DNA from: a virus | Lineage: Duplodnaviria; Heunggongvirae; Uroviricota; Caudoviricetes | DNA: 21,476 nt | Strand: one strand, 5' to 3' | Virus record (IMG/VR): IMGVR_UViG_648276645_000003 | Span: 1 to 21,476 of that record | Shown: positions 1,454 to 20,357 of the stretch, one piece after another | Numbering within the stretch: the stretch's first letter is position 1 | How the letters are laid out: every line of letters begins with the position of its first letter | Made by a program: the position numbers and the translations under genes | The notes under the pieces: model-generated | Database searches by the model: none | Seen by the model: only the letters and a program-made list of their open reading frames with translations | Told to the model about the DNA's origin: nothing

Positions 1454-1552
1454 CGCATCACCTCTGGCAGGCGCCAATGTTAGACTGAAATTGACGCCTG
1501 ATGTTGATTATTAATAATCAGCTATGAAGTTTTAATTTGAATACAATGCAAT

Positions 1553-1741
1553 TCACGAGGACTGAAGTTTCTCGCAATTAAAATTTATCAGTTTTACTTT
1601 CTGCTCTCTGGAAACGCCTGCTTCTTTTTTACCTGAGAGCATTTTTTCGCATTCTGATTTCGTTAGTTTAGATTTTGAATATCTTGTCCAGTTAGTAGGA
1701 GTGCCACCTTCCTTTTCAATAGTGGCGGTAATTTTATACAT
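1553..1741 (-). CDS. ydaC: Small prophage protein (YdaC-like)
   Basis: 62 aa from ATG at 1739-1741, preceded by GGAGGTG with 5-nt spacer; 8-nt overlap with the stop of the upstream ralR-like gene; longest ORF extends to 1813. Confidence 0.65.
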   Translation of the reverse strand: MYKITATIEKEGGTPTNWTRYSKSKLTKSECEKMLSGKKEAGVSREQKVKLINFNCEKLQSS

Positions 1742-1940
1742 GAACACCTCCATTATTATTTCCAGTGGTTCGTTTATTCCACCTTTCGAGTGCTTCTTTT
1801 TCACTTCCACCATAACCGGTTCGGGATTCGCATCCGTTACACTTCGCTCGGTAATATCCTGAAATGGCTTTCACCGTTACTGATGGACAACCACAAAATG
1901 GACATGGTTTAACATTGTCATATCTCGTGATTTTTCTCAT
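1734..1940 (-). CDS. ralR: Restriction alleviation protein Lar / RalR (type I toxin)
   Basis: Translation MRKITRYDNVKPCPFCGCPSVTVKAISGYYRAKCNGCESRTGYGGSEKEALERWNKRTTGNNNGGVHV matches my recall of Rac Lar/RalR; Cys-rich; alternative upstream ATG at 1967. Confidence 0.8.
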   Translation of the reverse strand: MRKITRYDNVKPCPFCGCPSVTVKAISGYYRAKCNGCESRTGYGGSEKEALERWNKRTTGNNNGGVHV

Positions 1941-1984
1941 AAAGAATATTTCAAGTTGGCGGTGCATTACACCGCCAGGCTGAA

Positions 1985-2794
1985 TTATTCCTCTGAATTA
2001 TCGATTACACTGTATTCCCCGGTTAATACAGAGGAATCTGCAGGATCGATTGTCAGTGGTTCCTTTTCATCCATTGATACTGCACGCTGGATCTCAATTG
2101 ATACGGGCAGGTATTTGAACAGGCGACGAATAGCCGTTTTCTTTGCCATTTCTTCCCAGTGAGTTACCCACGGCCTGTTATTACCAGCTTTACTCTGGCT
2201 GCGCACCAGCTCAATCTGTTTGCGCGTCATAACTTCAAACTGAGTACCTCCGTCTTTCAGTCTTGCGACAGCATAGACGTGGGTAACCGGGGCATCTTCG
2301 TTTTCTCCTGGGCGGTGTATTAACTTTTCATCAAGGCCAAATTCGAAATTAAACTCGTCACCTTCACGGACAACACGGGCTGACAGGCTGGCGATTTGAC
2401 CTGAACGGCGAGCCAGATCAATCATGCCGCGATAGCCAATGATTAGCTGAACGTTTTTTTTACCGCTCTTTTCGTTTTTATTACCAAAAGGCAGTAAATA
2501 TGCATGACCGAGGGCGCTACCGGGCTCAAGTCCGAGCTGTGAACACTGTACGATTGCACTGACAAAACTCATAGTGTCACAGTTTCCTAACGCCGGAACT
2601 TTACGAATTTCTGTGGTGGCGATACGGATCATACGTTCAGCCGTCATATGGCGTGGAAGAGCTGCTGCCAGTTGCTCTTTCATTGATGGCTGGTTAATAA
2701 AACTAATCACGTCGTTATTTTTAATTGCTGCTGGTGCACGGTTTCCCTGAGTTTTTTGCAGATCGGCTTTTGCGATTGGTGGTTGCTTAGTCAT
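1985..2794 (-). CDS. recT: Recombinase RecT (single-strand annealing protein)
   Basis: Translation from [23 protein letters not shown] matches RecT as I recall it; start ATG at 2792-2794 overlaps the recE stop at 2787-2789; longest ORF extends to 2851. Confidence 0.9.
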
Positions 2795-5447
2795 TTGCAT
2801 ATTCCTTAGCCCAGCGGGGCAGTGATAACGTCTTAATAGCTGGCCATTCATCGGTATTGAGGCAGTCAGCCAGGGTTCGCAGATTGCGGTGATATTCCAG
2901 CTGACCTACCTGTTTTGCTTCTTCGCCCATCATGAAAATTTCAACCGGATAACGTCCGCATTCAATAGTTGTGCTGGCAACCAGAAAAACGAAAGTTGGC
3001 TGCACTCCAAACTGTGCTTCATAACCGTCACTGTAGAATGCATCCTGAACGTGATAGCGGTAGTCGTAATAAGCGGTTTTGAATCGTTGAATATCCGCCG
3101 TAGTTTTCACGTCCATGATCCAGTGAAATTCAGGGATAATTTTGTCCGGACGGCACCGACACAAAATTCCTGTTTCAGGATCTTCCCAGTAAATTGATGA
3201 TTCAGCGTGTCCGGCGCTTTCAACAAGCCATTGCCCCAACGGCAAAGCCATAACGCTTTGATACATGAGTTCAATTTTCCGGCCTTCTTCCGCAGTGATA
3301 ACCGTTTTTCCTGTGCTTGCGCATTCCATCAGAAACGCTTTCTCTTCTTCTTTTCCGGCGTTTGTACGGCGGTTAAATTCAGGTGCTACGATAAAGCGGT
3401 TACTGAATTCTTCCGGTTCAAGTACCCGGCAGTGGAAAGCGGTTCCTAAATCGAGCGTTTTTGTCTTTGTGGTGTCCACGGGGGCATTTTTACGCCACAA
3501 ATACAGTGCGGGAGTATCAGCAATGTCATCGAGCTGAGACTTACTGACACCGGGACCCGCGTGGTAATTCTCATTCGAAATTCCGTAATAAATACCTGGC
3601 TCTATGTCTTCTACGATTACGGGATCTGCGACTTCGCCAGTTTCATCACTGCAATCGCGATGCGGATCGCTGCCAGCATTCTCATGGTGCGGATGTTCAG
3701 CGCCTTCCATTTCCTCCGGATCATTTTCCTTAGCTTCAACCTGATTCTCTTCATCGAATGTTTCCTGGTATGTTGCGTCGCCCATCACCGCACCACAGTC
3801 AGGGCAGTTATCCCCGCCAGTCTGGCCGCAGGCATTGCAGGCTATTTCCGGTTCCTGTTGCACTACTGGCTCAGGTTGTTTCACATCCGGGCTGATTTTT
3901 TCCGTTTCTGGTGTGTTTTGTTCCGTTTCTGGCTGGGAATCGCGAGTCAGGATCCCCTTAACCCATTTCGGATCGTTCGGGTCGCTAATTCCGTCAACAA
4001 ATTCACCACGTGATGCGGCAAGCAATTTATCGGCATCGACAGGATTTTTTGATGGAATGTTTTTCCGGGCTTCATGGAGTTCTGCCCGCAGTTCCTGATA
4101 TTTCGCATCAACAGAATTTACCTGTGACTGAGCATCCAGCGGCTGCGTGTCCTGATGATGTTCAGTTGCGTCCGGTTCCATTGTTTCAGCCTCTCCCTGT
4201 TCATCTGCCGTTGTTCCAGATGGTTGCGGTTTTTCTTCATCATCCTGTTTTCCTTCTTCTGTTACTCGCTGCGGCATCGGGGCAGAGGAGCGACCGCAGG
4301 CAATATCCACGATTTTCGGATCAGGGTTGGCATGATCGGTTTCAGTCAGTACTTTGTTCAGATATTCAGTGACGTGTGCGGGGATGACCTCGATCCCAAT
4401 TGGTGCTTCTTTCACGGACGCAACCACGATGGCGCGGGAATAATCCAGCCCGCCAGGCATGGTGATGAATTTGTCGCGGAAAACAGAAAAGGGCGGTTTA
4501 TTTTCAGCGATAATTTCCTCAATGCGTTTAGCGTGTGCCGGATGAAGGTTATAGATGTCCACGTCCATTGAACGGGCCAGTACGCCAGTGGCTACATCGC
4601 GCGCCAGTGACGTCAGATCGTGGACGAAACCTTCGCCGCGATCGGTGAGGTTCCCGCCGCCAGCATTAGCACCGGAAGCCGTGCGAGTGATGCGTGAAAC
4701 ACGATTCCCTTTTCGCCATTCTTTTGTCAGAAGACCGCGATCAATGTGTTCGGTATCCAGCCAGGCTGAAATGAAATTCTTAAATTCATAGGGCTGATGT
4801 TTTTTCGTGATAGAGAAAACTGCCTTAATTGCATCAGTCAGGCGGAGCAGGGCGGCATTATCCAGAGTTGTCGGTTCTGCCATGCCGCGTATGGCCAACA
4901 GCAGATTCTGGACATAGCTGTTTTCCTGATCCATCTCAAGAGCAGTAATGTGTTCGCGTTGTTCTCGGGTGGCATGATGCAGGTATTTCCGATCCCCGGC
5001 CGCATAGGTAAAAATGTGCAGAAGACGCTGTGTGAACCGCAAAGTAGATACAGAGATTTCGCAATCCTGGCAATCCCCGTGAGCGTCTGCCCGTGTGTTT
5101 TCTTCCTGGCCTCCCGCCAGTTCTTCGGTTTCCGGTGCATCCTCCTGATGGTGAACGTCGTCTGGCGCTGCTCCCGGTTTTAGTTCCCAGGTCATGGAGT
5201 CTTTGCTGAGTTGATAGCGTTCACTCCAGGTAAAATCGATCTCACCTTCAGGGGGAAGGTCATTAACGACAGGAAAATTCGTGGCAACAGGTTTAAAATA
5301 GCTGCTCAGTTTTTTACCTGACTTAACGAGCAGGTAGTCCAGAGTGGCACAGGTCGATTCAAAATCGTCGCTTGCCCACAGGACGACGTCAGGTTCACCG
5401 GATGATTTTTTCGCTTTCCGTAACAGGAAGAGTGGTTTTGTGCTCAT
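2787..5447 (-). CDS. recE: Exodeoxyribonuclease VIII (RecE)
   Basis: 886-aa ORF beginning [26 protein letters not shown]; acidic, low-complexity central region and a C-terminal nuclease region as in Rac RecE; directly upstream of and overlapping recT. Confidence 0.9.
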
Positions 5448-5548
5448 TGTTTTTTAACCTCAACTCAGATTAAAATTCGTTTTGTTCAGTGAATGATCTT
5501 GCCGGATACACACTGCTCATAGCCTGCGCCATACGCAGGCTATCTCTT

Positions 5549-5824
5549 TCAGATTTCACCTTTTAATTTCATTGCAATCAGAGCTGCCAGAAATTCGGCT
5601 TTTTTTTCTGCGGGCAGATTCTTTCCGGTATGCACCAGGCACATTTTTTTGACACCTTCGTGAAGTGTTTTAACGTTGCCTGATGGACCGTCGATATCAA
5701 CCACAGTGAATGGGGTTTCTTTATTTTCTGTTTTAATCACGTAGCCAATACGCTTTCCTTCCAGATTAACCTCGTGAACAATGTCATCGGTAGTTACAAC
5801 AGTGGCTTCATAATTGGTAATCAT
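5549..5824 (-). CDS. racC: Rac prophage protein RacC
   Basis: Translation from MITNYEATVVTTDDIVHEVNLEGKRIGYVIKTENKETPF matches my recall of RacC; ATG at 5822-5824; longest ORF extends to 5872. Confidence 0.8.
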   Translation of the reverse strand: MITNYEATVVTTDDIVHEVNLEGKRIGYVIKTENKETPFTVVDIDGPSGNVKTLHEGVKKMCLVHTGKNLPAEKKAEFLAALIAMKLKGEI

Positions 5825-5898
5825 GTTTTTCTCCTTAATTAAGGTTGAGCGAATCCCTGCCATTGCTGGCATAAATTCAGTTTCGAATACTCAGTTAA

Positions 5899-6069
5899 TT
5901 AAAGTTCGTGTTCCATCTGGTCTTTTTCGGCACAGATTTCACTACAATATTTTTTCATTTCCGTTGTTGGGATAACTCCACGCATGAAATGAAGTGGTCT
6001 TGTAATGCTTTTGCTTTCTTCAACTTCTTTATCGCAAAGGTGGTAAGCACATTTTATTTTCTTAGTCAT
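5899..6069 (-). CDS. ydaE: Small Cys-rich protein (YdaE-like, putative zinc-binding)
   Basis: 56-aa ORF absent from the supplied track (below size cut-off); hand translation [56 protein letters not shown]; its ATG at 6067-6069 overlaps the kilR stop in an ATGA arrangement. Confidence 0.7.
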   Translation of the reverse strand: MTKKIKCAYHLCDKEVEESKSITRPLHFMRGVIPTTEMKKYCSEICAEKDQMEHEL

Positions 6070-6290
6070 CACCATGACTCCGCCTTTACAGGTAAACCAT
6101 CACGACCGAGGAAGACTTTAATCATGCAGTCAGAAATGCATGTTTTTGTAGTCAGGTTACGAATATAAAGTTTTCGCTTTTTAATATTGTTTGCCGAGGC
6201 AATATATGTCCGGCCGTTATGAAGAACATAATCACCAGGAGTCACACACTGACGTGGTATTTCATCAGTTCCGCAGTGATGTGCAATCAT
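6069..6290 (-). CDS. kilR: Cell-division (FtsZ) inhibitor KilR
   Basis: Translation [73 protein letters not shown] matches my recall of KilR; ATG at 6288-6290 with GGAGA Shine-Dalgarno 6 nt upstream; longest ORF extends to 6302. Confidence 0.85.
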
Positions 6291-6731
6291 AATTATCTCC
6301 ATTTTTACAAATGAACTTTGTTGATGCGGTGCCTGGTGCTTCCAGGTGACTGCAACCAGTTAACAATTACAGTCGGCTTTCCCACCCAAACCAATAAGGA
6401 CTAACATGACTTTTAACTGTGCCACGTGCGCTTAGCCGCATTCACCGCATCACAAAATTCACTTTAAAAAGGGCGGACATCAGCCGAACTTCAAGAAAAA
6501 AACTGATGCCGCCAGGACTACACACAGCAATGTCGTTATTTACAACCGGAGGCGCACTCCCACCATTTAAATTTAACAGACAAGACCGACTCTTTATGGA
6601 TATCGGAAATGCGCCTTCGTGTTGTGCCCGGTTTTATTTCACCACCTCCGGGCTTCGGTGGTCTCGGCTATACCCCTACAGCGAGAGCTTGTGTTAACAT
6701 TTCAATACCCTTACAGTTGAGAGTTATTGAT

Positions 6732-7220
6732 ATGTTGGATGTATTTACTCCATTGTTGAAACTTTTTGCTAACGAGCCACTCGAAAGACTTATGTATACG
6801 ATTATCATTTTTGGTCTCACTCTCTGGCTGATACCGAAAGAGTTTACTGTCGCATTCAATGCTTATACTGAAATACCTTGGCTCTTTCATATTATCGTTT
6901 TTGCCTTTTCTTTCGTGGTCGCCATTTCCTTCTCAAGATTGCGAGCACATATTCAAAAGCATTATTCATTACTACCAGAGCAACGAGTATTGCTTCGTTT
7001 ATCTGAGAAAGAAATCGCTGTATTTAAAGATTTCCTTAAAACAGGAAATCTTATTATCACTTCTCCTTGCCGTAACCCGGTTATGAAAAAATTAGAACGG
7101 AAGGGCATCATTCAACATCAGAGTGATAGCGCAAACTGTTCTTATTATCTCGTCACCGAAAAATACTCCCATTTTATGAAGTTATTCTGGAACAGCAGGA
7201 GTAGACGTTTTAATCGTTAG
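6732..7220 (+). CDS. sieB: Superinfection exclusion protein B
   Basis: 162 aa from internal ATG at 6732 (MLDVFTPLLKLFANEPLERL...); hydrophobic membrane segments; position between kil and the immunity region as in lambdoid phages; longest ORF begins at 6609. Confidence 0.85.
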   Translation: MLDVFTPLLKLFANEPLERLMYTIIIFGLTLWLIPKEFTVAFNAYTEIPWLFHIIVFAFSFVVAISFSRLRAHIQKHYSLLPEQRVLLRLSEKEIAVFKDFLKTGNLIITSPCRNPVMKKLERKGIIQHQSDSANCSYYLVTEKYSHFMKLFWNSRSRRFNR

Positions 7221-7372
7221 CTTACTGTGTGCTTCTCCAACCATCGGCGCGCACCAGTTTCGGTTTTAAATGTTTTGCTTTTGGTATACGTCATGGCAGT
7301 GAACGTTCCATCCTGGTTGGGGAACACGCCGCACACCAGGGATTCGTTGTTGCCGAGGTCGATTTTTTGCAT
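7217..7372 (-). CDS. ydaF: Small prophage protein (YdaF-like)
   Basis: 51-aa ORF not in the supplied track; hand translation MQKIDLGNNESLVCGVFPNQDGTFTAMTYTKSKTFKTETGARRWLEKHTVS; convergent with sieB, 4-nt overlap of stop codons. Confidence 0.6.
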   Translation of the reverse strand: MQKIDLGNNESLVCGVFPNQDGTFTAMTYTKSKTFKTETGARRWLEKHTVS

Positions 7373-7382
7373 TTTGCGAATC

Positions 7383-7517
7383 TCACATCTTGTTGCTACG
7401 TATAGCGACTTCTGCCTGCCAGAGATCCCAGTCGTTGTTGCGTAAAGCCTGCACAGCCTGGCTGTAAGTGATACCGCAACAATCCATCAAATACTGAACT
7501 ACTTCATAATGCACCAT
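7383..7517 (-). CDS. ydaG: Small prophage protein (YdaG-like)
   Basis: 44-aa ORF not in the supplied track; hand translation MVHYEVVQYLMDCCGITYSQAVQALRNNDWDLWQAEVAIRSNKM; immediately upstream of the ydaF-like ORF on the same strand. Confidence 0.6.
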   Translation of the reverse strand: MVHYEVVQYLMDCCGITYSQAVQALRNNDWDLWQAEVAIRSNKM

Positions 7518-7764
7518 CTTATCTCTCCCCTTAACGCTGGGTGGCGGAACGTTTTATCTACTGCGCTTTGTATCAATCAACAACTGCCGTCATGTTCGTA
7601 TGCCTCAGGCTGGCTACTTAGCCCTGTTCAGTGGCTGGATAACTCGAGGTATTGTCCTGCCGTTCTCTGGTGGGGCGTTGTTTGGATATGTTTATTAAAC
7701 ACAAAATGATTTTCCGTGTCAACACGAATTGTGTTTTGTGGTGAGGTGTCATATGATGATGATA

Positions 7765-7789
7765 CAAAAAAGCCCGCTGATAGCGGGCT
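7765..7789 (-). terminator. Rho-independent terminator downstream of the repressor gene
   Basis: Perfect 7-bp stem AGCCCGC/GCGGGCT with 5-nt loop at 7771-7789; an A6 run at 7765-7770 gives a U-tract on the minus strand, 28 bp past the repressor stop. Confidence 0.7.
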
Positions 7790-7816
7790 GATAGGCATAT
7801 TACTGTGATAGCAAGA

Positions 7817-8239
7817 TCATTGCTCCGGTGGGGGGGTATCTTTAAGCCTGCCTCTCAAATATTTTTCTACATACTCGTCGATTTCTTTTAGCCGAACTTC
7901 AAATAGCTCAATCATTCGTTGTTGTTCTGAGCCCGGTAGCTGGTTAAACAACTCTAGAAGTTTTCGTTGGGATTCATTTAACCACAATTCAGAAGAGTCT
8001 TTTTCTCCAAACAGGAGTTCAGGAGGAGATATGCCCAGTGCCTTTCCCAGTACGACAGCATCATGCACTCCAACATTTCTGCTGCCCGCCTCATAGTTAC
8101 CTATACGCGATTGCGTCCATCCGCAGATTTCAGCAAGTTTTCCTTGCGATAAACCAAGCTTCTGCCTGCGCTCTTTAAGACGCATTGCAATTTTGTCATT
8201 GAGCCTACTAGCGGCAATTTTTTCGTTTTCTTTTTCCAT
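7817..8239 (-). CDS. Prophage repressor, HTH XRE-family (CI/RacR-like by position)
   Basis: 140-aa ORF; HTH-like segment LKERRQKLGLSQGKLAEICGWTQSRIGNYEAG; divergent from the Cro-like gene across an operator-containing intergenic region. Confidence 0.8.
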   Translation of the reverse strand: MEKENEKIAASRLNDKIAMRLKERRQKLGLSQGKLAEICGWTQSRIGNYEAGSRNVGVHDAVVLGKALGISPPELLFGEKDSSELWLNESQRKLLELFNQLPGSEQQRMIELFEVRLKEIDEYVEKYLRGRLKDTPPPEQ

Positions 8240-8335
8240 TGCATCCTTGTATCACGAATCGTGATTCACATAAAACACAAAACAGCTTGACCGCATAACA
8301 CAGGATGTGTTTAAAATTGTCGTCGGAGGTTTTCA
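8240..8335. promoter_or_regulatory. Divergent immunity-region promoter/operator
   Basis: Perfect 15-bp palindrome ATCACGAATCGTGAT at 8251-8265; rightward -35-like TTGACC at 8287-8292 and -10-like TAAAAT at 8312-8317; GGAGG Shine-Dalgarno before the ATG at 8336. Confidence 0.6.
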
Positions 8336-8578
8336 ATGAACAAAATTTCAACATATCGAAAACAGCTTGGCCTGTCTCAAAGACAACTCGCTGTTCAGTT
8401 AGGGTGGATACAAAGCCGACTAGCAAATTACGAAGCAAACTTTCGTACCCCTGGGCTAGAGGAGTGCAGAAAAATTGTTTCCACCCTTAATCGGCTTGGC
8501 GCTCATTGTGGACTTGACGATGTATTCCCCCCAGACGGTAAGCATAGCGAAAACAGCATAGGAGCGGTTGATTCATGA
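8336..8578 (+). CDS. Cro/YdaS-like HTH DNA-binding protein
   Basis: 80-aa ORF with N-terminal HTH-like segment RKQLGLSQRQLAVQLGWIQSRLANYE; strong GGAGG RBS; divergent from the repressor. Confidence 0.8.
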   Translation: MNKISTYRKQLGLSQRQLAVQLGWIQSRLANYEANFRTPGLEECRKIVSTLNRLGAHCGLDDVFPPDGKHSENSIGAVDS

Positions 8579-8997
8579 AAATCAGGCATGAGCATATCGA
8601 ATCAGTGTTGTTGGCCCTGGCATCTGAAAAAGGGCAGGCATGGGTTGCCAATGCGGTCACTGAAGAATATCTGCGCCAGGGGGGCGGCGAATTGCCCCTG
8701 GTTCCAGGCAAGGACTGGAACAATCAGCAGAATATCTATCACCGTTGGTTGAAAGGTGAAACGAATGCGCAAAGGGAAAAAATTCAGAAGCTGATCCCAG
8801 CAATTCTGGCAATCCTTCCGCGCGAGCTGCGTCACCGACTCTGCATCTTCGATACCCTGGAACGCCGTGCATTACTGGCGGCGCAGGAAGCGTTAAGTAC
8901 GGCAATTGATGCGCATGATGATGCAGTCCAGGCCGTTTACCGGAAAGCGCATTTCAGCGGTGGCGGGTCTTCCGACGATTCTGTCATTGTTCATTAA
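8575..8997 (+). CDS. ydaT: YdaT-like prophage protein
   Basis: 140-aa ORF; ATG overlaps the stop of the Cro-like gene (ATGA); position and length match Rac YdaT as I recall it. Confidence 0.7.
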   Translation: MKIRHEHIESVLLALASEKGQAWVANAVTEEYLRQGGGELPLVPGKDWNNQQNIYHRWLKGETNAQREKIQKLIPAILAILPRELRHRLCIFDTLERRALLAAQEALSTAIDAHDDAVQAVYRKAHFSGGGSSDDSVIVH

Positions 8998-9009
8998 GCA
9001 AAAGTTTCC

Positions 9010-9429
9010 ATGCTGTTTGTGCTTATTCTAAGCCACCGGGCAGCATCATACGGGGCAATTATGGCCGCATTACCATACATGCAACTGTACATAGCTGATT
9101 ACCTGGCTGACACCATGCATTTGTCAGCAGAGGAGCATGGTGCGTATTTGTTGCTGATGTTCAATTACTGGCAAACAGGAAAGCCAATACCTAAAAACAG
9201 GCTGGCAAAAATTGCCCGTCTGACTAACGAGCGATGGGCTGATGTTGAACCATCCTTGCAGGAGTTTTTTTGCGATAACGGCGAGGAATGGGTGCATCTT
9301 CGGATTGAGGAAGATCTGGCATCAGTCAGGGAAAAATTACCAAAAAATCAGCCGCAGGAAAAGCATCTGTTCAGGCCAGAAGAAGCAGAAAGGAAGCAGA
9401 TGTTCAAACAAAACAAGAGAGAAATTTAA
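9010..9429 (+). CDS. YdaU-like replication-region protein, N-terminal segment (possibly split by frameshift)
   Basis: 139-aa ORF; the ATG at 9061 (MAALPYMQLYIADYLADT...) has a better RBS (ACGGGG) than 9010; ends at 9429 while the next ORF's frame is already open from 9309. Confidence 0.55.
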   Translation: MLFVLILSHRAASYGAIMAALPYMQLYIADYLADTMHLSAEEHGAYLLLMFNYWQTGKPIPKNRLAKIARLTNERWADVEPSLQEFFCDNGEEWVHLRIEEDLASVREKLPKNQPQEKHLFRPEEAERKQMFKQNKREI

Positions 9430-9452
9430 CAGGTGTTCAAACAGATGTTGAA

Positions 9453-10208
9453 GTGGTGTTTGAACATGATGTCAACACAAAGGCAACTAATAAAGATACA
9501 GATAAAGATCTAAAAACAGATCTAACCCATCCCAAACCCTTCCCTTCCGGAAGGGCGTTTCGGGATTTTGTGGCTGGAGTGCTTGAGGGGAGATTATCTG
9601 GCGGTACTGCAGCGGAATTTTGTAATTCTGCGGTGGTTGCGTTGCAGGCTGCTGGCCTGGATGTCTGTCGTGAGTATCCGGTGCCAGAGCGTGGTGACGG
9701 TTGCGGTGGGCGGATTGATATCGTCGTGACTGACAGGAACGGTGTCCGGTGTGGGATCGAGCTTGACCGAAATTCTCCGCGACAGAAATCACTGCTCAAA
9801 ATCGGTGCTGTTGAAACCGGGATATGTGTCTTGCGGCGCAGTGATATCGCAAGGCACACCGAGCAGGGAATTCTGGTTATCGGCGGGGCTGTTCGCCAGA
9901 AAAAATTTGACCCGTTGTCAGTTGATCTGCCCGACTGGTTGCCAGAAACACTCTGGCATGAGTGGGTCCAGTTCAGGCAGGCATTGCGTAAACCGATTCG
10001 AACGGAGCAGGGCGCTAACGGGGCGATACGGGAGCTGGAAAAATTCCGCCAGCAGGGTTTTTCACCTGAGCAGGTGATTCGACACAGCATCGCCAATGAA
10101 TACCAGGGCTTGTTCGTGCCAAAAGGTGTTCGACCTGAGACGTTACTCCGACAGGTTAACACCGTCTCGTTACCGGATAGTGCGATCCCGCCAGGCTTTA
10201 GGGGGTAA
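9453..10208 (+). CDS. ydaU: YdaU-like replication-region protein, C-terminal segment
   Basis: Listed ORF starts at a GTG at 9453, but its frame is open back to 9309 with no ATG; basic linker (KKSAAGKASVQARRSRKEADVQ) when read from 9309; lies just upstream of the DnaC-like gene. Confidence 0.55.
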   Translation: MVFEHDVNTKATNKDTDKDLKTDLTHPKPFPSGRAFRDFVAGVLEGRLSGGTAAEFCNSAVVALQAAGLDVCREYPVPERGDGCGGRIDIVVTDRNGVRCGIELDRNSPRQKSLLKIGAVETGICVLRRSDIARHTEQGILVIGGAVRQKKFDPLSVDLPDWLPETLWHEWVQFRQALRKPIRTEQGANGAIRELEKFRQQGFSPEQVIRHSIANEYQGLFVPKGVRPETLLRQVNTVSLPDSAIPPGFRG

Positions 10209-10214
10209 CTGACC

Positions 10215-10949
10215 ATGAAAAATATTGCGGCAGGCGGCATTCTTGAACGTATCCGCAGACTGGCCCCGCCACATGTAACCGCCCCATTCAAAACGGTAGC
10301 GGAGTGGCGCGAGTGGCAACTTTCCGAAGGCCAGAAACGTTGTGAGGAGATCAACCGTCAGAATCGTCAGTTGCGGGTGGAAAAAATTCTGAATCGCTCT
10401 GGCATCCAGCCATTGCACCGCAAATGCTCGTTTGCGAATTACCAGGTGCAGAACGACGGTCAGCGATACGCGTTGAACCAAGCGAAATCTATCGCTGATG
10501 AACTGATGACCGGGTGTACAAATTTTGCGTTCAGCGGAAAACCTGGTACCGGAAAAAACCATCTGGCGGCGGCTATCGGGAATCGCCTGCTGAAAGATGG
10601 CCAGACAGTGATTGTGGTTACCGTGGCTGATGTCATGAGTGCTCTACACGCCAGCTATGACGACGGGCAATCAGGCGAAAAATTTTTGCGGGAACTGTGC
10701 CAAGTGGATCTGCTGGTTCTTGATGAAATTGGCATTCAGCGCGAGACAAAAAACGAGCAGGTGGTGCTGCACCAGATTGTTGATCGCCGGACAGCGTCGA
10801 TGCGCAGCGTGGGGATGCTGACAAACCTGAACTATGAGGCTATGAAAACATTGCTCGGCGAGCGGATTATGGATCGCATGACCATGAACGGCGGACGCTG
10901 GGTGAATTTTAACTGGGAGAGCTGGCGTTCGAATGTTGGCTTGCGATGA
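10215..10949 (+). CDS. ydaV: Replication protein, DnaC-like helicase loader (YdaV-like)
   Basis: 244-aa ORF; Walker A FSGKPGTGKNHLAAAIG and Walker B DLLVLDEIG; typical position after the O-like gene. Confidence 0.85.
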   Translation: MKNIAAGGILERIRRLAPPHVTAPFKTVAEWREWQLSEGQKRCEEINRQNRQLRVEKILNRSGIQPLHRKCSFANYQVQNDGQRYALNQAKSIADELMTGCTNFAFSGKPGTGKNHLAAAIGNRLLKDGQTVIVVTVADVMSALHASYDDGQSGEKFLRELCQVDLLVLDEIGIQRETKNEQVVLHQIVDRRTASMRSVGMLTNLNYEAMKTLLGERIMDRMTMNGGRWVNFNWESWRSNVGLR

Positions 10950-10990
10950 TTTTTATGAGGAAATAATCGACGAATGAGGGCTAATGTCTG

Positions 10991-11087
10991 GTCACCCGGT
11001 TGACAATTACAAATATTTTATTGACGATGAATGGAAAATGCGTGACGATTACAATATATGACTTGTCAAAGTATAATGAGAGATTGC
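10991..11087. promoter_or_regulatory. Iteron-like repeat array and promoter region upstream of the AAA+ ATPase gene
   Basis: TGAC(A/G)AT direct repeats begin at 11001, 11022 and 11043 (exact 21-bp period); inverted copy TTGTCAA at 11063-11069 and GTCAC at 10991-10995; -10 candidates TACAAT 11050-11055 and TATAAT 11072-11077. Confidence 0.5.
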
Positions 11088-12191
11088 ATGAAGATTAACC
11101 ATGAGGATTTAATTGATCTTATAAAGGCATCACTGGATGCGAATTACAGCGAAGTTCGTAGTGTTAGTAATCGCATTGTTCGCGCAATTAGCGCTCAGGA
11201 TGCTGACTTAGCAAAGCAAATTAAGTCTATCATCCGTAAAAAAGGGGTACCATTACGTAGCTCTGGTTATACGGACAGTTTGCCCTTAGATCCGAAATCA
11301 AGGATGCCTTTAGTGGAAGAAGTCGAATGGCCTGCAACGCCTTTATTTCTTTCTGATGAATCACAGCATATTTTTCATGCTTTTATTCAGAATGTTATCC
11401 ATCAGAATGAACTTATAGAGAATGGAATTCCAGGTAAATTGAATTTACTTCTTTCTGGTCCGCCAGGAACAGGTAAGACATTAGTCGCTGGTCATATCGC
11501 ATCCAAATTAAACAAACCGCTCTATGTTGTTCGGCTTGACTCTGTTATTTCTTCTCTGTTAGGTGATACAGCGAAGAACCTAAGACAGATTTTTGACTTC
11601 GTCCCGACAAAAGATGGTGTGTTATTTCTTGATGAAGTAGATGCGGTTGCTAAGCTTCGTGATGACAATCAGGAAGTTGGAGAGTTAAAAAGAGTTGTTA
11701 ACACATTAATCCAAGGACTGGATTCTCTTGATGATTCTGCTATTGTCATTGCTGCAACTAATCATTCGAAGCTATTGGATCCAGCAATTTGGAGACGTTT
11801 CCCATATAAAATTAGCTTTGGTTTGCCTGGACAAGATGTCAGATGTGCTATGTGGGAACATTTTTTATTTAGAGATGATACGGATTCATTTCTAAGTAAA
11901 ATGTTATCTATCATATCAACTGGGCTAACAGGTGCTGATATTGAAAATATCAGTTTATCTGCAAGAAGGCATAGTGTTTTATCTGGCAATGGACTGGATA
12001 TACCATCTGTTGTTTATGCTATATTGAATAGCGTTGCGGATAGTACAGCAATTCCTTTTGGTAAGGATATAAATTCGAGTGTTAAGAAAAATTTAGCGAA
12101 GGAATTATCTAAGTTTAAATTATCACAGGCAGATATCGGTAGACTTTTAAATGTGAGCAGGCAAACTATATCAGGTTATTTCAAGGAATAA
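11058..12191 (+). CDS. Classical-clade AAA+ ATPase with C-terminal HTH-like tail
   Basis: Walker A GPPGTGKT (residues 134-141), Walker B VLFLDEVD (188-195), sensor-1 IAATN, second-region-of-homology-like LLDPAIWRRF; C-terminal LSQADIGRLLNVSRQTISGYF resembles an HTH; alternative ATG at 11088 has a GAGAG RBS; AT-rich (~35% GC). Confidence 0.85.
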   Translation: MTCQSIMRDCMKINHEDLIDLIKASLDANYSEVRSVSNRIVRAISAQDADLAKQIKSIIRKKGVPLRSSGYTDSLPLDPKSRMPLVEEVEWPATPLFLSDESQHIFHAFIQNVIHQNELIENGIPGKLNLLLSGPPGTGKTLVAGHIASKLNKPLYVVRLDSVISSLLGDTAKNLRQIFDFVPTKDGVLFLDEVDAVAKLRDDNQEVGELKRVVNTLIQGLDSLDDSAIVIAATNHSKLLDPAIWRRFPYKISFGLPGQDVRCAMWEHFLFRDDTDSFLSKMLSIISTGLTGADIENISLSARRHSVLSGNGLDIPSVVYAILNSVADSTAIPFGKDINSSVKKNLAKELSKFKLSQADIGRLLNVSRQTISGYFKE

Positions 12192-12193
12192 TT

Positions 12194-14461
12194 ATGGTCA
12201 GTGAAAATAAAGCTAAAATTTTAAACCCAATAATTACTTTATTGAAACCACCAACGCCAGAGGCGATTCCTGTTGGAGGGAAAAGTCGTAAAAATATTGT
12301 TGGTTCACGGTTGAAACAACAGCGTGAAGTTTTATCCTCAGAGATAGATTCCATATTAAGAACAGAAAGTGAAATAGTTAAACATCGTGGTAAGTATCAT
12401 ATAGTAACAAGTATGTTTGAGGACTCATATGCACCATCGTTTATACCAGATTCATTATTCTGTCCCAGTGTTGAATGTAAGATAGTTGCACCAGCATACA
12501 ATGGATATTTAATTGAGGTCAATAGCAATGCTTTATTGAAGTTGAAAAATAAAATTAATAATGCAAAAGCTATTACTGATCTTGTGGATATTTCAAGGGT
12601 TAGAAGTGTTAGTCTTTTTGATTCATCTTGTACATTGCGAAATAGTAGCCTTGATTCGCTCTGGAATACAGTTAAGGCTTTGAATACATTTCAATTTAAT
12701 GTGTGGTTTATGCCTTTTTTTGATGAGCTTTCTAGAGAGTCTGTAGTTTCAACTTTTTTAAATTTTTTAAATGATGGTATCATCGCTTTTGGTTATTCAG
12801 ATTTTGACATAAAAACTATAAATCAAGATGCTGCTGTTGGCGGGGATAATATAGTCATAGTTCCACCGTTACTTATTGAAGCGATAAAAAAGTATCGTAA
12901 ATCAGGTCAAGCATCCGTTACCGTCACTGTAGAGACTAAAGATAGTTTAAACAGGATGCTGAATAGCAGTGCTGTGTATCGTATAGATCCTGTATCACCG
13001 CTAAACGTAACAGATACTCCTCCTGGTAATGGGGCTGAACCTGTTCCACCAATATTGGGGGATAAGAAAATGCCAACTGTAGTTGTAATTGATGGTGGGT
13101 GCAATGCGAAATCATATTCAAAATTAAATATATATAAACTAAATCCGCTAATTCCAGATCATGATGCAGATTGTAAACATGGTAATAAAGTTGTATCGTT
13201 GTTATGTCACGGTTATGCTTGGAATAATAATTTAAACTTACCTAAATTGCAATGTAGCTATATAAGTGCACAGGCTATTGCGAAAAGGGGAGTGTTGAAA
13301 CAACCAACTCCGGATCAATTTTTAAATTATTTAAGAATGGTTGCTGACAAAACGTCATCTATCGCCAAGGTCTGGAATCTTTCGTTTAATGAAGACGCTC
13401 CTCATTATAACTGTAATGAGATAAGTTATCTGGGACATAAAATCAGTTTGTTGGCTCGAGAATTTGGTATTCTGCCTGTAATATCTATCGGTAATGTTTC
13501 AAAGAACGAAAAACAAAAAAATCTTTGTCCGCCCGCAGATTGTGAGTCAGGAATTACAGTAAGTGGGAGAACGGCCAATCATGAAGGAATGCCTTCAGAT
13601 GGCTGTCCTTTAAGTCGGAAAGGCCCTGCTCCTGCAGGAATGAAAAAACCTGAGTTATCATGGTTTTCTCGAGTTAGGGTGATAGGTGGAACAGTAGATA
13701 TCGGAACAAGTTTTAGTGCTCCATTAGTTTCATCTATTGCTGCTCATACCTTTTCGAATATTAAAAATGCCACTCCTGATTTGGTTAGGGCATTATTGAT
13801 TAACAGGAGTGAGTTGCTTTCTCATGATGATGCATTAGGATGGGGGACTCCTTGGGATGGCGATTTACTGCCATGGTATTGTAAAGATGGCAGTGTCACA
13901 TTAACGTGGATATCTAAGTTAAAGGCTGGGGCTGCTTATTATTGGAACGATCTTCCATTACCTCCAGAGATGTTAGTTAATGGTAAATTAGTTGGTGAGA
14001 TATCTCTGACAGCTATACTAAAACCTAAGGTTTCTGAGTTCGGAAGTGAGAACTATTTTTCGACAAGGCTCCAATGTTCGTTACAGGCAATAAAAGAAAT
14101 TAACGGGACGCTAAAAACAGAAAGCCTTCTTGGGTCAATGAAAGAATCTTCTGTTGATGAGCGTAAAGCTAGAAATGAACTTTCTAAATGGAGCCCTATT
14201 CGCCATCATGCAGAGTCGTTTAAGAGAAAAGATATAACAGGGTGTAAAATTCGGCTTTATGCTAGGATATATGCTAGAGATTTGTATCAGTATGGGTTAA
14301 ATAACCAACGGGAGCTTGAAGAGCAAGAGGTTTCCTTTGTTTTAACTTTTAAAAGTGTATCAGGATCGTCCTCAATATATACATCAATGGTTCAGCAACT
14401 TGGTGTTTATGTTGAAAGTGCTGTTATAGATAATCACATTAACATAGATGTTAATAAGTGA
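12194..14461 (+). CDS. Subtilisin-like (S8) serine protease, large multi-domain, cytoplasmic
   Basis: 755-aa ORF starting 2 nt after the ATPase stop, with AGGA RBS inside the ATPase 3' end; ordered S8 motifs VVVIDGG (Asp300), CKHGNKV (His329), GTSFSAP (Ser507); no N-terminal signal peptide; about 290 aa N-terminal and 235 aa C-terminal of the catalytic core unassigned; AT-rich. Confidence 0.8.
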   Translation: MVSENKAKILNPIITLLKPPTPEAIPVGGKSRKNIVGSRLKQQREVLSSEIDSILRTESEIVKHRGKYHIVTSMFEDSYAPSFIPDSLFCPSVECKIVAPAYNGYLIEVNSNALLKLKNKINNAKAITDLVDISRVRSVSLFDSSCTLRNSSLDSLWNTVKALNTFQFNVWFMPFFDELSRESVVSTFLNFLNDGIIAFGYSDFDIKTINQDAAVGGDNIVIVPPLLIEAIKKYRKSGQASVTVTVETKDSLNRMLNSSAVYRIDPVSPLNVTDTPPGNGAEPVPPILGDKKMPTVVVIDGGCNAKSYSKLNIYKLNPLIPDHDADCKHGNKVVSLLCHGYAWNNNLNLPKLQCSYISAQAIAKRGVLKQPTPDQFLNYLRMVADKTSSIAKVWNLSFNEDAPHYNCNEISYLGHKISLLAREFGILPVISIGNVSKNEKQKNLCPPADCESGITVSGRTANHEGMPSDGCPLSRKGPAPAGMKKPELSWFSRVRVIGGTVDIGTSFSAPLVSSIAAHTFSNIKNATPDLVRALLINRSELLSHDDALGWGTPWDGDLLPWYCKDGSVTLTWISKLKAGAAYYWNDLPLPPEMLVNGKLVGEISLTAILKPKVSEFGSENYFSTRLQCSLQAIKEINGTLKTESLLGSMKESSVDERKARNELSKWSPIRHHAESFKRKDITGCKIRLYARIYARDLYQYGLNNQRELEEQEVSFVLTFKSVSGSSSIYTSMVQQLGVYVESAVIDNHINIDVNK

Positions 14462-14501: not shown

Positions 14502-14522
14502 ACCCGCCTCGGCGGGTTTTTT
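14502..14522 (+). terminator. Rho-independent terminator of the ATPase-protease operon
   Basis: GC stem CCCGC/GCGGG with 4-nt loop, followed by T6 at 14517-14522, about 40 bp past the protease stop. Confidence 0.75.
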
Positions 14523-14555
14523 ATCTGCCGATGGTGAAGGTTGAAAAATAATCAC

Positions 14556-14620
14556 ATATTTGATTGTATGCGCAGCAAGAAATAAAAGTCATTGCGTTCG
14601 CACATTAAACAATCAAATAT
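14556..14620. repeat. 12-bp perfect inverted repeat pair with 41-bp spacer
   Basis: ATATTTGATTGT at 14556-14567 and its reverse complement ACAATCAAATAT at 14609-14620. Confidence 0.6.
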
Positions 14621-14704
14621 ACAACATGAAATAAACATTCTGTGTATATATATTTTTGCCTCCAGGTAGATATAAACCTCTTTCCTTAGAGGCTTGGAGG
14701 CATC

Positions 14705-14917
14705 GTGAAAAACTCACAGGAATCTTTTAGCACTAAATTTGCAGTCATACGTTGTGATGATCTGTCAGTTATTGTTGAAATGGATTATTTCCCTGATACA
14801 CAAAAAGCAATGATGTATCGGAATGGCCGCAAGGCAATTTTTTTACCGATGAGGAATAGTGATATTATGGGAAATGATAAATTGCCAGATGAATTGCGAG
14901 TCAGGGCATCCTGTTAG
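14705..14917 (+). CDS. Small hypothetical protein in the AT-rich island
   Basis: 70-aa ORF with GTG start preceded by GGAGG (14696-14700, 4-nt spacer); AT-rich like the upstream operon; no recognisable motif. Confidence 0.45.
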   Translation: MKNSQESFSTKFAVIRCDDLSVIVEMDYFPDTQKAMMYRNGRKAIFLPMRNSDIMGNDKLPDELRVRASC

Positions 14918-14988
14918 TATTGGCATTGATTCTGGTATACTACACAACGGGCTGAACACCCATTCTACTGCGCCAGCGGAGAACTACG

Positions 14989-16750: not shown

Positions 16751-16826
<76 letters not shown>

Positions 16827-16829
16827 TAT

Positions 16830-16904
<75 letters not shown>

Positions 16905-18762: not shown

Positions 18763-18899
18763 AATCTTAACTACAATATGATTCATTTTGATGATTGTTT
18801 CATAAGGAACAGTGAAGTAAGATCTAAGAGGGGTTAAATTTTATACAGTATAATCATAATATTGCAGCAAGGTGGTTATAATTGAAAGAATATTTAGAT

Positions 18900-20357
18900 A
18901 TGAATACATCTCATGTAAGAGTTGTTACTCATATGTGTGGGTTCCTGGTTTGGCTCTATAGTCTTTCAATGTTGCCACCAATGGTTGTAGCATTGTTTTA
19001 TAAAGAAAAAAGCCTGTTCGTTTTCTTTATAACTTTCGTTATATTTTTTTGCATTGGTGGCGGAGCGTGGTATACAACTAAGAAATCTGGCATTCAATTA
19101 CGTACCCGTGATGGGTTTATTATAATTGTAATGTTTTGGATTTTGTTTTCTGTTATTAGTGCATTCCCTTTATGGATTGACTCAGAACTTAATTTAACGT
19201 TCATTGATGCTCTGTTTGAAGGGGTTTCTGGAATAACAACAACAGGAGCAACTGTAATTGATGATGTTAGTTCATTACCTCGGGCATATTTGTACTATCG
19301 GTCACAGTTAAATTTTATAGGTGGTTTAGGAGTTATTGTTCTGGCGGTTGCTGTATTGCCATTATTGGGTATTGGTGGTGCAAAGCTTTATCAGTCAGAA
19401 ATGCCGGGGCCATTTAAGGATGACAAACTCACTCCCCGCCTGGCCGATACGTCACGGACACTGTGGATAACTTATTCTTTATTAGGTATTGCTTGTATTG
19501 TCTGTTATAGACTTGCAGGAATGCCTTTGTTTGATGCTATTTGTCACGGGATTTCCACAGTTTCGCTTGGTGGTTTCTCAACTCATAGCGAGAGTATCGG
19601 ATATTTTAATAACTATTTGGTTGAGCTGGTGGCTGGTTCTTTTTCCCTGCTATCGGCTTTCAACTTCACTCTTTGGTATATTGTTATTAGCAGGAAAACG
19701 ATAAAACCTTTAATCAGAGATATTGAACTTCGTTTCTTTCTGTTAATAGCCTTAGGGGTGATCATTGTTACCTCTTTCCAGGTCTGGCATATAGGTATGT
19801 ATGACTTGCATGGAAGTTTTATTCATTCGTTTTTTCTTGCCAGCTCCATGCTCACTGATAATGGTTTAGCTACGCAGGATTATGCAAACTGGCCCACGCA
19901 CACGATAGTGTTTTTGCTGTCGTCAAGTTTCTTTGGGGGATGTATAGGTTCAACTTGTGGTGGAATTAAGTCACTTCGATTTCTTATACTTTTCAAACAA
20001 AGCAAACACGAGATAAATCAGCTTTCTCATCCCAGAGCGTTGTTGAGTGTAAATGTAGGAGGGAAGATAGTTACAGATCGTGTAATGAGGTCTGTATGGA
20101 GTTTCTTTTTTCTTTATACTCTCTTCACGGTGTTTTTTATACTGGTGTTAAATGGTATGGGATATGATTTTCTTACATCATTTGCAACAGTGGCTGCATG
20201 TATTAATAATATGGGATTAGGTTTTGGGGCTACTGCATCGTCATTCGGAGTGCTTAATGACATTGCAAAATATTTAATGTGCATAGCTATGATTCTTGGT
20301 CGCCTTGAAATTTATCCTGTTATTATATTGTTTTCAGGTTTTTTTTGGCGCTCCTAA
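18900..20357 (+). CDS. trkG: Trk-system potassium uptake membrane protein TrkG
   Basis: 485 aa from ATG at 18900 (MNTSHVRVVTHMCGFLVWLYSLSMLPP...), matching my recall of Rac TrkG; multi-pass membrane protein; AT-rich (~35% GC); longest ORF begins at a TTG at 18882. Confidence 0.9.
   Translation: MNTSHVRVVTHMCGFLVWLYSLSMLPPMVVALFYKEKSLFVFFITFVIFFCIGGGAWYTTKKSGIQLRTRDGFIIIVMFWILFSVISAFPLWIDSELNLTFIDALFEGVSGITTTGATVIDDVSSLPRAYLYYRSQLNFIGGLGVIVLAVAVLPLLGIGGAKLYQSEMPGPFKDDKLTPRLADTSRTLWITYSLLGIACIVCYRLAGMPLFDAICHGISTVSLGGFSTHSESIGYFNNYLVELVAGSFSLLSAFNFTLWYIVISRKTIKPLIRDIELRFFLLIALGVIIVTSFQVWHIGMYDLHGSFIHSFFLASSMLTDNGLATQDYANWPTHTIVFLLSSSFFGGCIGSTCGGIKSLRFLILFKQSKHEINQLSHPRALLSVNVGGKIVTDRVMRSVWSFFFLYTLFTVFFILVLNGMGYDFLTSFATVAACINNMGLGFGATASSFGVLNDIAKYLMCIAMILGRLEIYPVIILFSGFFWRS

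What the first reader, a model, noticed from the sequence alone, without database searches (positions are those of the whole stretch)
11058..14461. AAA+ ATPase plus S8 subtilisin-like protease operon: candidate anti-phage / abortive-infection module
Two translationally coupled genes (2-nt gap, protease RBS inside the ATPase 3' end). The first is a classical AAA+ ATPase with intact Walker A (K140), Walker B (D192/E193), sensor-1 and arginine-finger-like RRF. The second is a 755-aa protein with all three subtilase catalytic motifs in canonical order and spacing (D300, H329, S507) and no signal peptide. Neither gene belongs to the Rac/lambda backbone, and the pair sits where lambdoid phages accumulate morons. 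An ATPase coupled to a cytoplasmic protease suggests regulated proteolysis as an effector. The architecture resembles what I recall as the IetAS pair, but I could not run a search, so it may be a divergent member or a distinct family.
Basis: partly seen in the sequence, partly recalled or inferred. Interest (0 to 1): 0.85.

Follow-up and report, generated by a model that had tools for sequence, protein, structure and literature searches.

The report
Prophage-borne IetAS ATPase–protease defence pair
This is a two-gene ATPase-plus-protease module of the already described IetAS toxin–antitoxin and anti-phage family, carried as rare cargo in a Rac-type prophage; it is a divergent member of a known kind, not a new system.

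Summary
Two coupled genes (ietA 11088–12191, ietS 12194–14461) form a low-GC island inside a Rac-type prophage. Two corrections: homologues and RefSeq place the ATPase start at 11088 (367 aa, not 377), and the catalytic serine is S506, not S507.

PADLOC matches both proteins full-length to IetA (E 5e-100) and IetS (E 1e-65). The pair is a divergent clade. It falls below NCBIfam's equivalog cut-offs for the anti-phage IteA/IteS, and it resembles the founding pTiC58 pair only in the AAA core.

It is rare in E. coli (1 of 5,426 complete genomes). The same Rac slot holds the Gao-type IteAS in 78 genomes and in phage vB_EcoS-683R6. Other members of the clade sit in P4-like satellites, prophage ends and defence islands.

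The likely mechanism is inferred from tested relatives. IetS is a cytoplasmic protease toxin restrained by the IetA ATPase, and phage infection releases it, aborting the infection. The biochemical mechanism of the family is still unknown.

One new detail: IetA ends in a helix-turn-helix, and 21-nt-phased TGACRAT boxes sit upstream of ietA. This array is conserved in 9 of 11 loci of this clade, suggesting autoregulation.

The parts
10941..11087 (+). Left cargo junction and the ietA upstream region. Backbone homology ends about 9 nt before the ydaV stop codon.
   Evidence: 1,335 E. coli genomes match only window 10900-10940. ydaV here is 244 aa, against 248 aa in strain M19 and phage 683R6. No terminator lies between ydaV and ietA.
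11001..11068 (+). Array of three same-strand TGACRAT boxes at 11001, 11022 and 11043 (exact 21-nt phasing), plus an inverted TGTCA at 11064. This is a candidate operator.
   Evidence: 0 of 20,000 shuffles give a phased triple, and these are the only 21-nt-phased TGACR pairs in the whole window. A comparable array is present in 9 of 11 loci of this clade and 0 of 11 loci of other IetA clades.
11048..11077 (+). Best sigma-70-like promoter match (-35 ATTACA, 18-nt spacer, -10 TATAAT). It is overlapped by boxes 3 and 4.
   Evidence: 10 of 12 matches. The number of promoter-like sites in the region is no higher than in shuffles, so this is only a candidate.
11088..12191 (+). ietA: a 367-aa classical-clade AAA+ ATPase, the putative antitoxin or regulator.
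   Evidence: PADLOC IetA 5.2e-100. Pfam AAA 3.9e-29. AF2 pLDDT 81. Foldseek matches p97 D2, FtsH, PAN, Vps4 and spastin. phrog_3757 7e-108.
11244..11321 (+). Conserved but predicted-disordered IetA segment (residues 53-78 of the 367-aa protein: GVPLRSSGY..LP.D.KSR.PL.EE).
   Evidence: Invariant G53, P55, L56, S59, G60, P66, D68, K70, S71, L75 and E78. pLDDT is below 50 for residues 53-63. The LP.D..SR core is also kept in Gao-type IteA.
11457..11480 (+). Walker A motif, GPPGTGKT.
   Evidence: invariant.
11619..11636 (+). Walker B motif, VLFLDE.
   Evidence: D182/E183 invariant.
12075..12185 (+). C-terminal three-helix helix-turn-helix of IetA (residues 330-366).
   Evidence: AF2 helices 330-343, 347-354 and 358-366. 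Pfam HTH_3 scores E 0.004, below threshold. R358 and Q359 are conserved. Sub-threshold HTH hits also occur in three homologues. The segment aligns with the Gao-type IteA C-terminus.
12194..14461 (+). ietS: a 755-aa cytoplasmic S8 subtilase, the putative toxin or effector.
12221..13003 (+). IetS N-terminal alpha/beta region (residues about 10-270) of unknown function, followed by a disordered linker at 275-281.
13061..13849 (+). S8 catalytic domain, with D300 (13091-13093), H329 (13178-13180) and S506 (13709-13711).
13886..14413 (+). IetS C-terminal beta-sandwich (residues about 565-740).
14502..14523 (+). Intrinsic terminator hairpin ACCCGC-N4-GCGGG plus a T-run, marking the right cargo boundary.
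   Evidence: Backbone homology (84%) resumes at 14502 in 173 genomes. The hairpin is invariant in the window, OkiPb01675, M19 and phage 683R6 despite their different cargo.

Best explanation
The pair is a two-gene IetAS-family module carried as accessory cargo of a Rac-type prophage. IetS is a cytoplasmic subtilisin-like protease whose unrestrained activity is toxic. IetA is a hexamer-type AAA+ ATPase that uses ATP to keep IetS inactive. When an incoming phage expresses a trigger protein, or otherwise disables IetA, IetS is released. It then cleaves cell or phage proteins, the infected cell stops growing or dies, and the phage fails to spread (abortive infection). The same toxin-antitoxin behaviour would also stabilise the prophage that carries the pair. 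IetA additionally has a C-terminal helix-turn-helix, and I infer that it binds the 21-nt-phased TGACRAT boxes over the promoter to autoregulate the operon, as type II antitoxins do. What is shown here: family identity, intact catalytic motifs, cytoplasmic location, conserved pairing, a mobile-element and defence-hotspot context, and the box array. What is inferred from relatives: toxicity, the antitoxin role, abortive infection and the phage trigger. What is my own inference: IetA binding to the boxes.
For: Full-length PADLOC IetA and IetS hits. NCBIfam IteA and IteS are the best hits. The catalytic triad, Walker motifs, sensor 1 and arginine residues are invariant across 42-55 homologues. Structure models are confident. 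The core folds are subtilase and classical AAA. No export signal is present. The pair is always adjacent with gaps of 2-6 nt in every locus examined. Contexts: a Rac prophage accessory slot, P4-like satellites next to RelE/MqsA or Abi_2, a prophage end next to the integrase, a Pseudomonas island with SLFN-like helicase, MazG-like and GT4-conflict genes, and a lambdoid phage downstream of its O/P genes. The same Rac slot holds an NCBIfam-equivalog IteAS in phage 683R6 and E. coli LR-51, and hokD plus a doc toxin in strain M19. Literature on relatives: the pTiC58 and SGI1 pairs are toxin-antitoxin systems with the protease as toxin and the ATPase as antitoxin (PMC5006074). A B. cereus ietAS acts by abortive infection and is triggered by a phage SPbeta protein (10.1101/2022.08.27.505566). 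Protease activity is needed for defence, and an ietA mutant could not be constructed (PMC13069673). For autoregulation: the HTH and the phased boxes.
Against: No member of this particular clade is known to me to have been tested. The pair scores far below the NCBIfam equivalog cut-offs (297.5 against 510, and 177.8 against 900). IetS has no BLASTP-detectable similarity to the founding pTiC58 IetS. The biochemical mechanism and the substrates of the family are unknown (PMC13069673). The pore-loop-1 position of IetA reads S-L-L-G with no aromatic residue, so a threading-unfoldase role is uncertain. All HTH hits are below Pfam thresholds. The boxes resemble the sigma-70 -35 consensus and could be promoter elements rather than operators. 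Expression signals are unverified, and the best -10 element lies so close to the start codon that the Shine-Dalgarno sequence might be missing from that transcript.
Confidence: 0.72

Rival explanations
1. The pair is primarily an addiction (post-segregational killing) module that stabilises the Rac prophage against loss, with no significant anti-phage role.
For: The two relatives characterised first were found as stability determinants of pTiC58 and of Salmonella Genomic Island 1 (PMC5006074). The pair always rides on mobile elements. The same slot in strain M19 carries the hokD and doc toxins.
Against: Other IetAS members do protect against phages (PMC13069673; 10.1101/2022.08.27.505566; 10.1101/2022.08.21.504612). 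SgiAT expressed from its own promoter gave no post-segregational killing effect (PMC5006074). Neighbours include Abi_2 and defence-island genes. The two roles are not mutually exclusive.
Confidence: 0.2
2. The pair works for the phage during lytic growth, for example in host takeover or protein processing. It would be transcribed with the early-right operon rather than acting as a lysogen-expressed defence.
For: It is co-oriented with ydaS-ydaT-ydaU-ydaV with no terminator in between. Both proteins match PHROG families of unknown function.
Against: The pair is dispensable and rare in Rac (1 of 5,426 genomes). It occurs equally in satellites and non-phage islands. It has its own AT-rich upstream region with a conserved box array.
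Confidence: 0.05
3. It is a secreted or housekeeping subtilase with a dedicated chaperone or ATPase.
For: The S8 fold, with propeptide-bearing secreted subtilases as the best structural matches.
Against: There is no signal peptide or membrane segment. The distribution is sporadic, and the pair sits in a low-GC island on mobile elements. The family-specific N- and C-terminal domains are conserved with IetS, not with secreted enzymes.
Confidence: 0.01
4. It is a decaying, non-functional remnant.
For: Rac prophages are often defective. The ietA leader is about 22 nt shorter than in homologues.
Against: Both ORFs are full-length, with every invariant residue intact. The proteins are 100% identical in several independent assemblies and viral contigs.
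Confidence: 0.02

Closest known systems
IetAS as defined by the PADLOC models PDLC02196 (IetA) and PDLC02197 (IetS), for example the pair on Rhizobium rhizogenes plasmid pRi1724
   Same: Identical two-gene architecture and sizes (374 and 752 aa). The proteins are collinear over their full length, at 53% (IetA) and 42% (IetS) identity. The N-terminal IetA motif, the S-L-L-G pore loop and the C-terminal HTH are shared.
   Different: The host and replicon differ (an alpha-proteobacterial plasmid against an enterobacterial prophage). The upstream boxes in pRi1724 are looser (TTTACAT and TTTACGA, 42 nt apart). I know of no experimental data for either pair.
Gao-type anti-phage IteA/IteS (NCBIfam NF042959 and NF042956), for example in Escherichia phage vB_EcoS-683R6 and 78 E. 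coli genomes
   Same: Same architecture and similar sizes (384 and 738 aa). IetA is collinear, including the LP.D..SR motif and the C-terminal HTH (hhalign probability 100%, E 9e-55). IetS is collinear from residue ~211 to the C-terminus in the Dongshaea example. The pair occupies the same Rac slot upstream of DUF1367.
   Different: Identity is only 39-43% for IetA and 23-27% for IetS. The window pair fails both equivalog cut-offs, while the 683R6 pair passes them. The 21-nt-phased TGACR boxes are absent. This clade is 78 times more common in complete E. coli genomes.
The founding IetA/IetS of Agrobacterium plasmid pTiC58 (Yamamoto et al. 2009, cited through PMC5006074) and SgiAT of Salmonella Genomic Island 1
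   Same: An AAA ATPase gene followed by an S8 protease gene. PADLOC classifies the pTiC58 proteins as IetA and IetS. The experimentally shown logic is protease as toxin and ATPase as antitoxin (PMC5006074).
   Different: pTiC58 IetA is 328 aa, lacks the C-terminal HTH, has a canonical K-F-M-G pore loop, and matches only the AAA core (40% over 161 aa). pTiC58 IetS is 836 aa with no significant BLASTP or hhalign match. I could not obtain the SgiAT sequence, so its clade is undetermined.
ietHAS, an IetAS variant with an SNF2 helicase (PMC13069673)
   Same: It shares the IetA and IetS components, and protease activity is required for defence.
   Different: The window has no third gene. The upstream gene, ydaV, is the phage DnaC-like replication protein of the Rac backbone.

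Membership tests
IetAS (PADLOC/DefenseFinder sense) | Adjacent, co-oriented AAA+ ATPase and S8 protease genes | tested here: met
   2-nt gap on the same strand. The pairing is conserved in all homologous loci examined.
IetAS (PADLOC/DefenseFinder sense) | The ATPase matches an IetA profile over its full length | tested here: met
   PDLC02196: E 5.2e-100, residues 16-376 against profile positions 5-369 of 374.
IetAS (PADLOC/DefenseFinder sense) | The protease matches an IetS profile | tested here: met
   PDLC02197: E 1.3e-65. Five further IetS models also hit.
IetAS (PADLOC/DefenseFinder sense) | Intact catalytic residues (Walker A/B; Asp-His-Ser triad) | tested here: met
   K130, D182/E183, N225 and R236/R237 in IetA, and D300, H329 and S506 in IetS, are all invariant in the alignments.
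IetAS (functional definition) | IetS is toxic and is neutralised by IetA | not testable with these tools
   Shown only for the pTiC58 and SGI1 relatives (PMC5006074).
IetAS (functional definition) | Protection against phage infection | not testable with these tools
   Shown for other clades (PMC13069673; 10.1101/2022.08.27.505566; 10.1101/2022.08.21.504612).
NCBIfam IteA/IteS anti-phage equivalogs (Gao-type clade) | Score at or above the curated equivalog cut-off | tested here: not met
   IteA scores 297.5 against a cut-off of 510, and IteS 177.8 against 900. As a positive control, the phage 683R6 pair scores 526.6 and 1038.1.
Orthologue of the pTiC58 IetA/IetS founding pair | Full-length sequence similarity to both founding proteins | tested here: not met
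   IetA is 40% identical over 161 aa of the AAA core only. For IetS, BLASTP gives E = 1.0 and hhalign gives probability 3%.
Type II toxin-antitoxin system with a DNA-binding, autoregulating antitoxin | The antitoxin carries a DNA-binding domain | tested here: inconclusive
   A three-helix C-terminal HTH appears in the AF2 model. Pfam HTH hits are recurrent but all below threshold.
Type II toxin-antitoxin system with a DNA-binding, autoregulating antitoxin | Repeated operator sites over the operon promoter | tested here: met
   Three TGACRAT boxes at exact 21-nt phasing plus an inverted copy, overlapping the best promoter match. Conserved in 9 of 11 clade loci and 0 of 11 controls. Binding by IetA was not tested.
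Secreted subtilase | N-terminal signal peptide | tested here: not met
   The N-terminal hydropathy maximum is 0.79.
Substrate-threading AAA+ unfoldase (FtsH, ClpX or p97-D2 type) | An aromatic-hydrophobic-Gly pore loop 1 | tested here: not met
   The position reads S-L-L-G and is invariant in this clade. pTiC58 IetA has K-F-M-G. The functional meaning is an inference.

The most novel reading that the evidence does not exclude
IetA of this clade would be a DNA-binding AAA+ hexamer. Its C-terminal helix-turn-helix domains would dock on an array of -35-like TGACRAT boxes spaced two helical turns apart. That would couple operon autorepression to the state of the ATPase-protease complex. The conserved but disordered N-terminal motif (GVPLRSSGY..LP.D.KSR) would be the element that occupies, or is cleaved by, the IetS active site. 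This would give the first concrete regulatory and inhibitory model for a defence family whose mechanism is still open.
Probability: 0.3. Interest if true: 0.5.

Novelty: new member of a known kind. Interest (0 to 1): 0.3.

Why it matters
IetAS is a recognised defence and toxin-antitoxin family whose mechanism is still undescribed, so this pair does not open a new category. Three points are modestly useful. First, RefSeq labels this clade only 'AAA family ATPase' and 'S8 family serine peptidase', because the NCBIfam equivalogs cover only the Gao-type clade, so it is under-annotated. Second, two distantly related IetAS clades occupy the same Rac prophage slot, bounded by the ydaV 3' end and a conserved terminator hairpin, which documents cassette exchange at a defined hotspot. 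Third, the conserved phased boxes, the C-terminal HTH and the conserved disordered motif of IetA are directly testable handles on how the ATPase controls both the protease and the operon.

Tried and rejected
- **Literature search for 'IteA', 'IteS', 'sgiAT', 'ietHAS':** returned only unrelated papers.
- **Founding papers:** Yamamoto 2009 (PMC2704731) and Gao 2020 are not held. Their content is cited through PMC5006074 and PMC13069673, or marked as my own knowledge.
- **Finding SGI1 SgiAT among the homologues:** the Salmonella protein P0125 and the abundant P0144 both sit in other integrase or P4-like islands, not SGI1. It remains unknown which clade SgiAT belongs to.
- **A second AAA+S8 pair in pTiC58:** I assumed one might exist that is closer to the window. 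None does; pTiC58 is absent from the tblastn hit list, and its only pair is the divergent 328/836-aa one.
- **'The C-terminal HTH is specific to this clade':** proposed, then rejected. Other clades have HTH-like C-termini, and the Gao-type IteA aligns through the HTH.
- **Exact TGACR as the universal box:** rejected. L019-L021 use variant cores. The broadened motif T[GT]AC[AG] was chosen after seeing the data, so the 9-of-11 against 0-of-11 result needs independent confirmation.
Full report
**Observation**

The window holds two same-strand ORFs at 11058..12191 and 12194..14461. They are separated by 2 nt, and an AAGGA ribosome-binding site lies in the last codons of the first gene.

There are two corrections:
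- The catalytic serine of the GTSFS motif is S506; residue 507 is Phe.
- The ATPase almost certainly starts at 11088. All 42 aligned homologues begin there, RefSeq annotates that start in the one complete E. coli genome that carries the pair, and the identical database protein is 367 aa. In the corrected numbering the key residues are K130, D182/E183, N225 and R236/R237.

Neither protein has a signal peptide or membrane segment. The pair lies in a low-GC island (0.33-0.42, against 0.51-0.54 in the flanks).

**Identity**

PADLOC matches the ATPase full-length to IetA (E 5.2e-100) and the protease to IetS (E 1.3e-65). Pfam finds the AAA and Peptidase_S8 domains. NCBIfam's best hits are the anti-phage IteA and IteS equivalogs, but the scores are far below their cut-offs (297.5 against 510, and 177.8 against 900).

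Both proteins also match full-length PHROG families labelled 'unknown function'. No IetS relative has a solved structure by sequence. The IetA core is closest to Cdc48/p97, FtsH, PAN and Vps4.

**Position within the family**

Direct comparisons separate three sequence clades.
- **The window's clade.** This includes the pRi1724 pair, at 53% and 42% identity over the full length, and relatives in Enterobacterales, Pseudomonas and rhizobia.
- **The Gao-type clade.** NCBI names these proteins IteA and IteS. They have the same architecture but are only 39-43% (IetA) and 23-27% (IetS) identical.
- **The founding pTiC58 pair.** These are 328 and 836 aa. Only the AAA core is similar (40% over 161 aa), and the protease has no significant BLASTP or hhalign match. 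PADLOC still calls both proteins IetA and IetS.

An exhaustive search of 1.84 billion representatives finds 76 proteins at E ≤ 1e-30 and 245 at E ≤ 1e-10. About 30 of the listed representatives are full-length members of this clade.

**Context**

The window is a Rac-type prophage. The cargo runs from about 10941, inside the 3' end of ydaV, to about 14501. Backbone homology resumes at a terminator hairpin.

The hairpin ACCCGC-N4-GCGGG is invariant in four loci that carry different cargo. The pair occurs in 1 of 5,426 complete E. coli genomes.

The same slot holds other cargo elsewhere:
- **Strain M19:** DUF1627, DUF977, an IS110 element, hokD and a doc toxin.
- **Phage vB_EcoS-683R6 and strain LR-51:** a Gao-type IteAS that passes the NCBIfam cut-offs. 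That pair is present in 78 genomes.

Other members of the window's clade sit in these contexts:
- P4-like satellites, next to RelE/MqsA or Abi_2.
- A prophage end, beside the integrase.
- A Pseudomonas defence island.
- A lambdoid phage, downstream of its O/P replication genes.

**Anatomy of the proteins**

The IetS model is confident (pLDDT 85.7, pTM 0.87). It has four parts:
- an N-terminal alpha/beta region (residues about 10-270);
- a disordered linker (275-281);
- the S8 core (about 290-550);
- a C-terminal beta-sandwich (about 565-740).

The best structural matches are subtilases with a propeptide and a C-terminal beta-domain: Tk-SP, KP-43, SubHal and Kex2/furin. Invariant residues are spread over all three domains.

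The IetA model (pLDDT 81) has four parts:
- a three-helix N-terminal bundle;
- a strictly conserved segment that is nonetheless predicted to be disordered (residues 53-78);
- the AAA module;
- a C-terminal three-helix HTH.

The pore-loop-1 position reads S-L-L-G, whereas pTiC58 IetA has K-F-M-G.

**Mechanism**

From the literature on relatives:
- The protease is the toxin and the ATPase is the antitoxin in pTiC58 and SGI1 (PMC5006074).
- A Bacillus cereus ietAS protects by abortive infection, and a phage SPbeta protein triggers it (10.1101/2022.08.27.505566).
- Protease activity is needed for defence, ietA mutants could not be constructed, and the mechanism remains unknown (PMC13069673).
- E. 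coli ietAS systems are often prophage-borne (10.1101/2022.08.21.504612).

I therefore infer that this pair is a phage-triggered protease toxin restrained by its ATPase. From my own memory of Yamamoto 2009, which I could not check here, both protease activity and ATP binding were important for the pTiC58 system.

**A new detail: phased boxes upstream of ietA**

Upstream of ietA there are three same-strand TGACRAT boxes at 11001, 11022 and 11043, with exact 21-nt phasing. An inverted TGTCA lies at 11064. Boxes 3 and 4 overlap the best promoter match.
- No phased triple arose in 20,000 shuffles, and these are the only phased pairs in the whole window.
- The same array occurs at conserved offsets in Salmonella, Pectobacterium, Serratia and lambdoid-phage loci.
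- With a broadened motif chosen after seeing the data, 9 of 11 loci in this clade have a phased pair. This compares with 0 of 11 loci from other IetA clades and 0.6% of background windows.

I propose that these boxes are operators for the IetA HTH. The alternative is that they are -35-like promoter elements.

**Verdict**

This is a real and intact member of a known family. It is divergent and rare, and it is interesting mainly as a handle on an unsolved mechanism.

Noticed in passing
window 11001-11068; also L004, L012, L013, L015, L019, L020, L023: TGACRAT-type boxes with exact 21-nt phasing lie upstream of ietA. They are conserved across this IetAS clade, absent from other clades, and resemble the sigma-70 -35 hexamer.
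   Followed up: yes
window 14502-14523; L001, L009, L011: An invariant terminator hairpin ACCCGC-N4-GCGGG marks the right edge of the variable cargo in four Rac-type elements with different cargo. It may be a recombination boundary.
   Followed up: partly
L011 3595-6988 (phage vB_EcoS-683R6); L017 4001-7394 (E. coli LR-51): A different, Gao-type IteAS pair occupies the same Rac slot directly upstream of DUF1367. It is present in 78 of 5,426 E. coli genomes, against 1 for the window's clade.
   Followed up: yes
window 10215-10949: ydaV is 244 aa here, against 248 aa in other Rac elements. The left cargo junction lies inside its last codons and changes the C-terminus.
   Followed up: partly
window 11244-11321 (IetA residues 53-78): This segment is strictly conserved yet predicted to be disordered (GVPLRSSGY..LP.D.KSR.PL.EE), and it is partly shared with the Gao-type IteA. 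It could be an interaction or pseudo-substrate element.
   Followed up: partly
window 11072-11090: The ietA leader is about 22 nt shorter than in homologues. The best -10 element (TATAAT) ends 10 nt before the start codon, so a transcript from it would lack the GAGAG Shine-Dalgarno sequence. This is unexplained.
   Followed up: no
window 14524-14988: Downstream of the hairpin the window follows the M19-type sequence, which includes a 70-codon ORF at 14705-14917. OkiPb01675 and phage 683R6 share a different version. The region is mosaic.
   Followed up: partly
window 16751-16904: tRNA-Thr(TGT) and tRNA-Gly(TCC) genes lie downstream of the Q-like gene, as in phage 683R6. OkiPb01675 has tRNA-Ile and tRNA-Arg there instead.
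   Followed up: no
window 1-10000 and 18882-20357: The prophage also carries other toxin or exclusion genes typical of Rac (integrase, recET, kilR, sieB, ydaS/ydaT) and a trkG-like gene. These are known from the annotation of identical elements.
   Followed up: no
L097 17968-18966; L012 4059-4503; L014 2239-4515: Members of this clade sit beside Abi_2, RelE/MqsA, SLFN-like helicase and MazG-like genes in P4-like satellites and defence islands.
   Followed up: no
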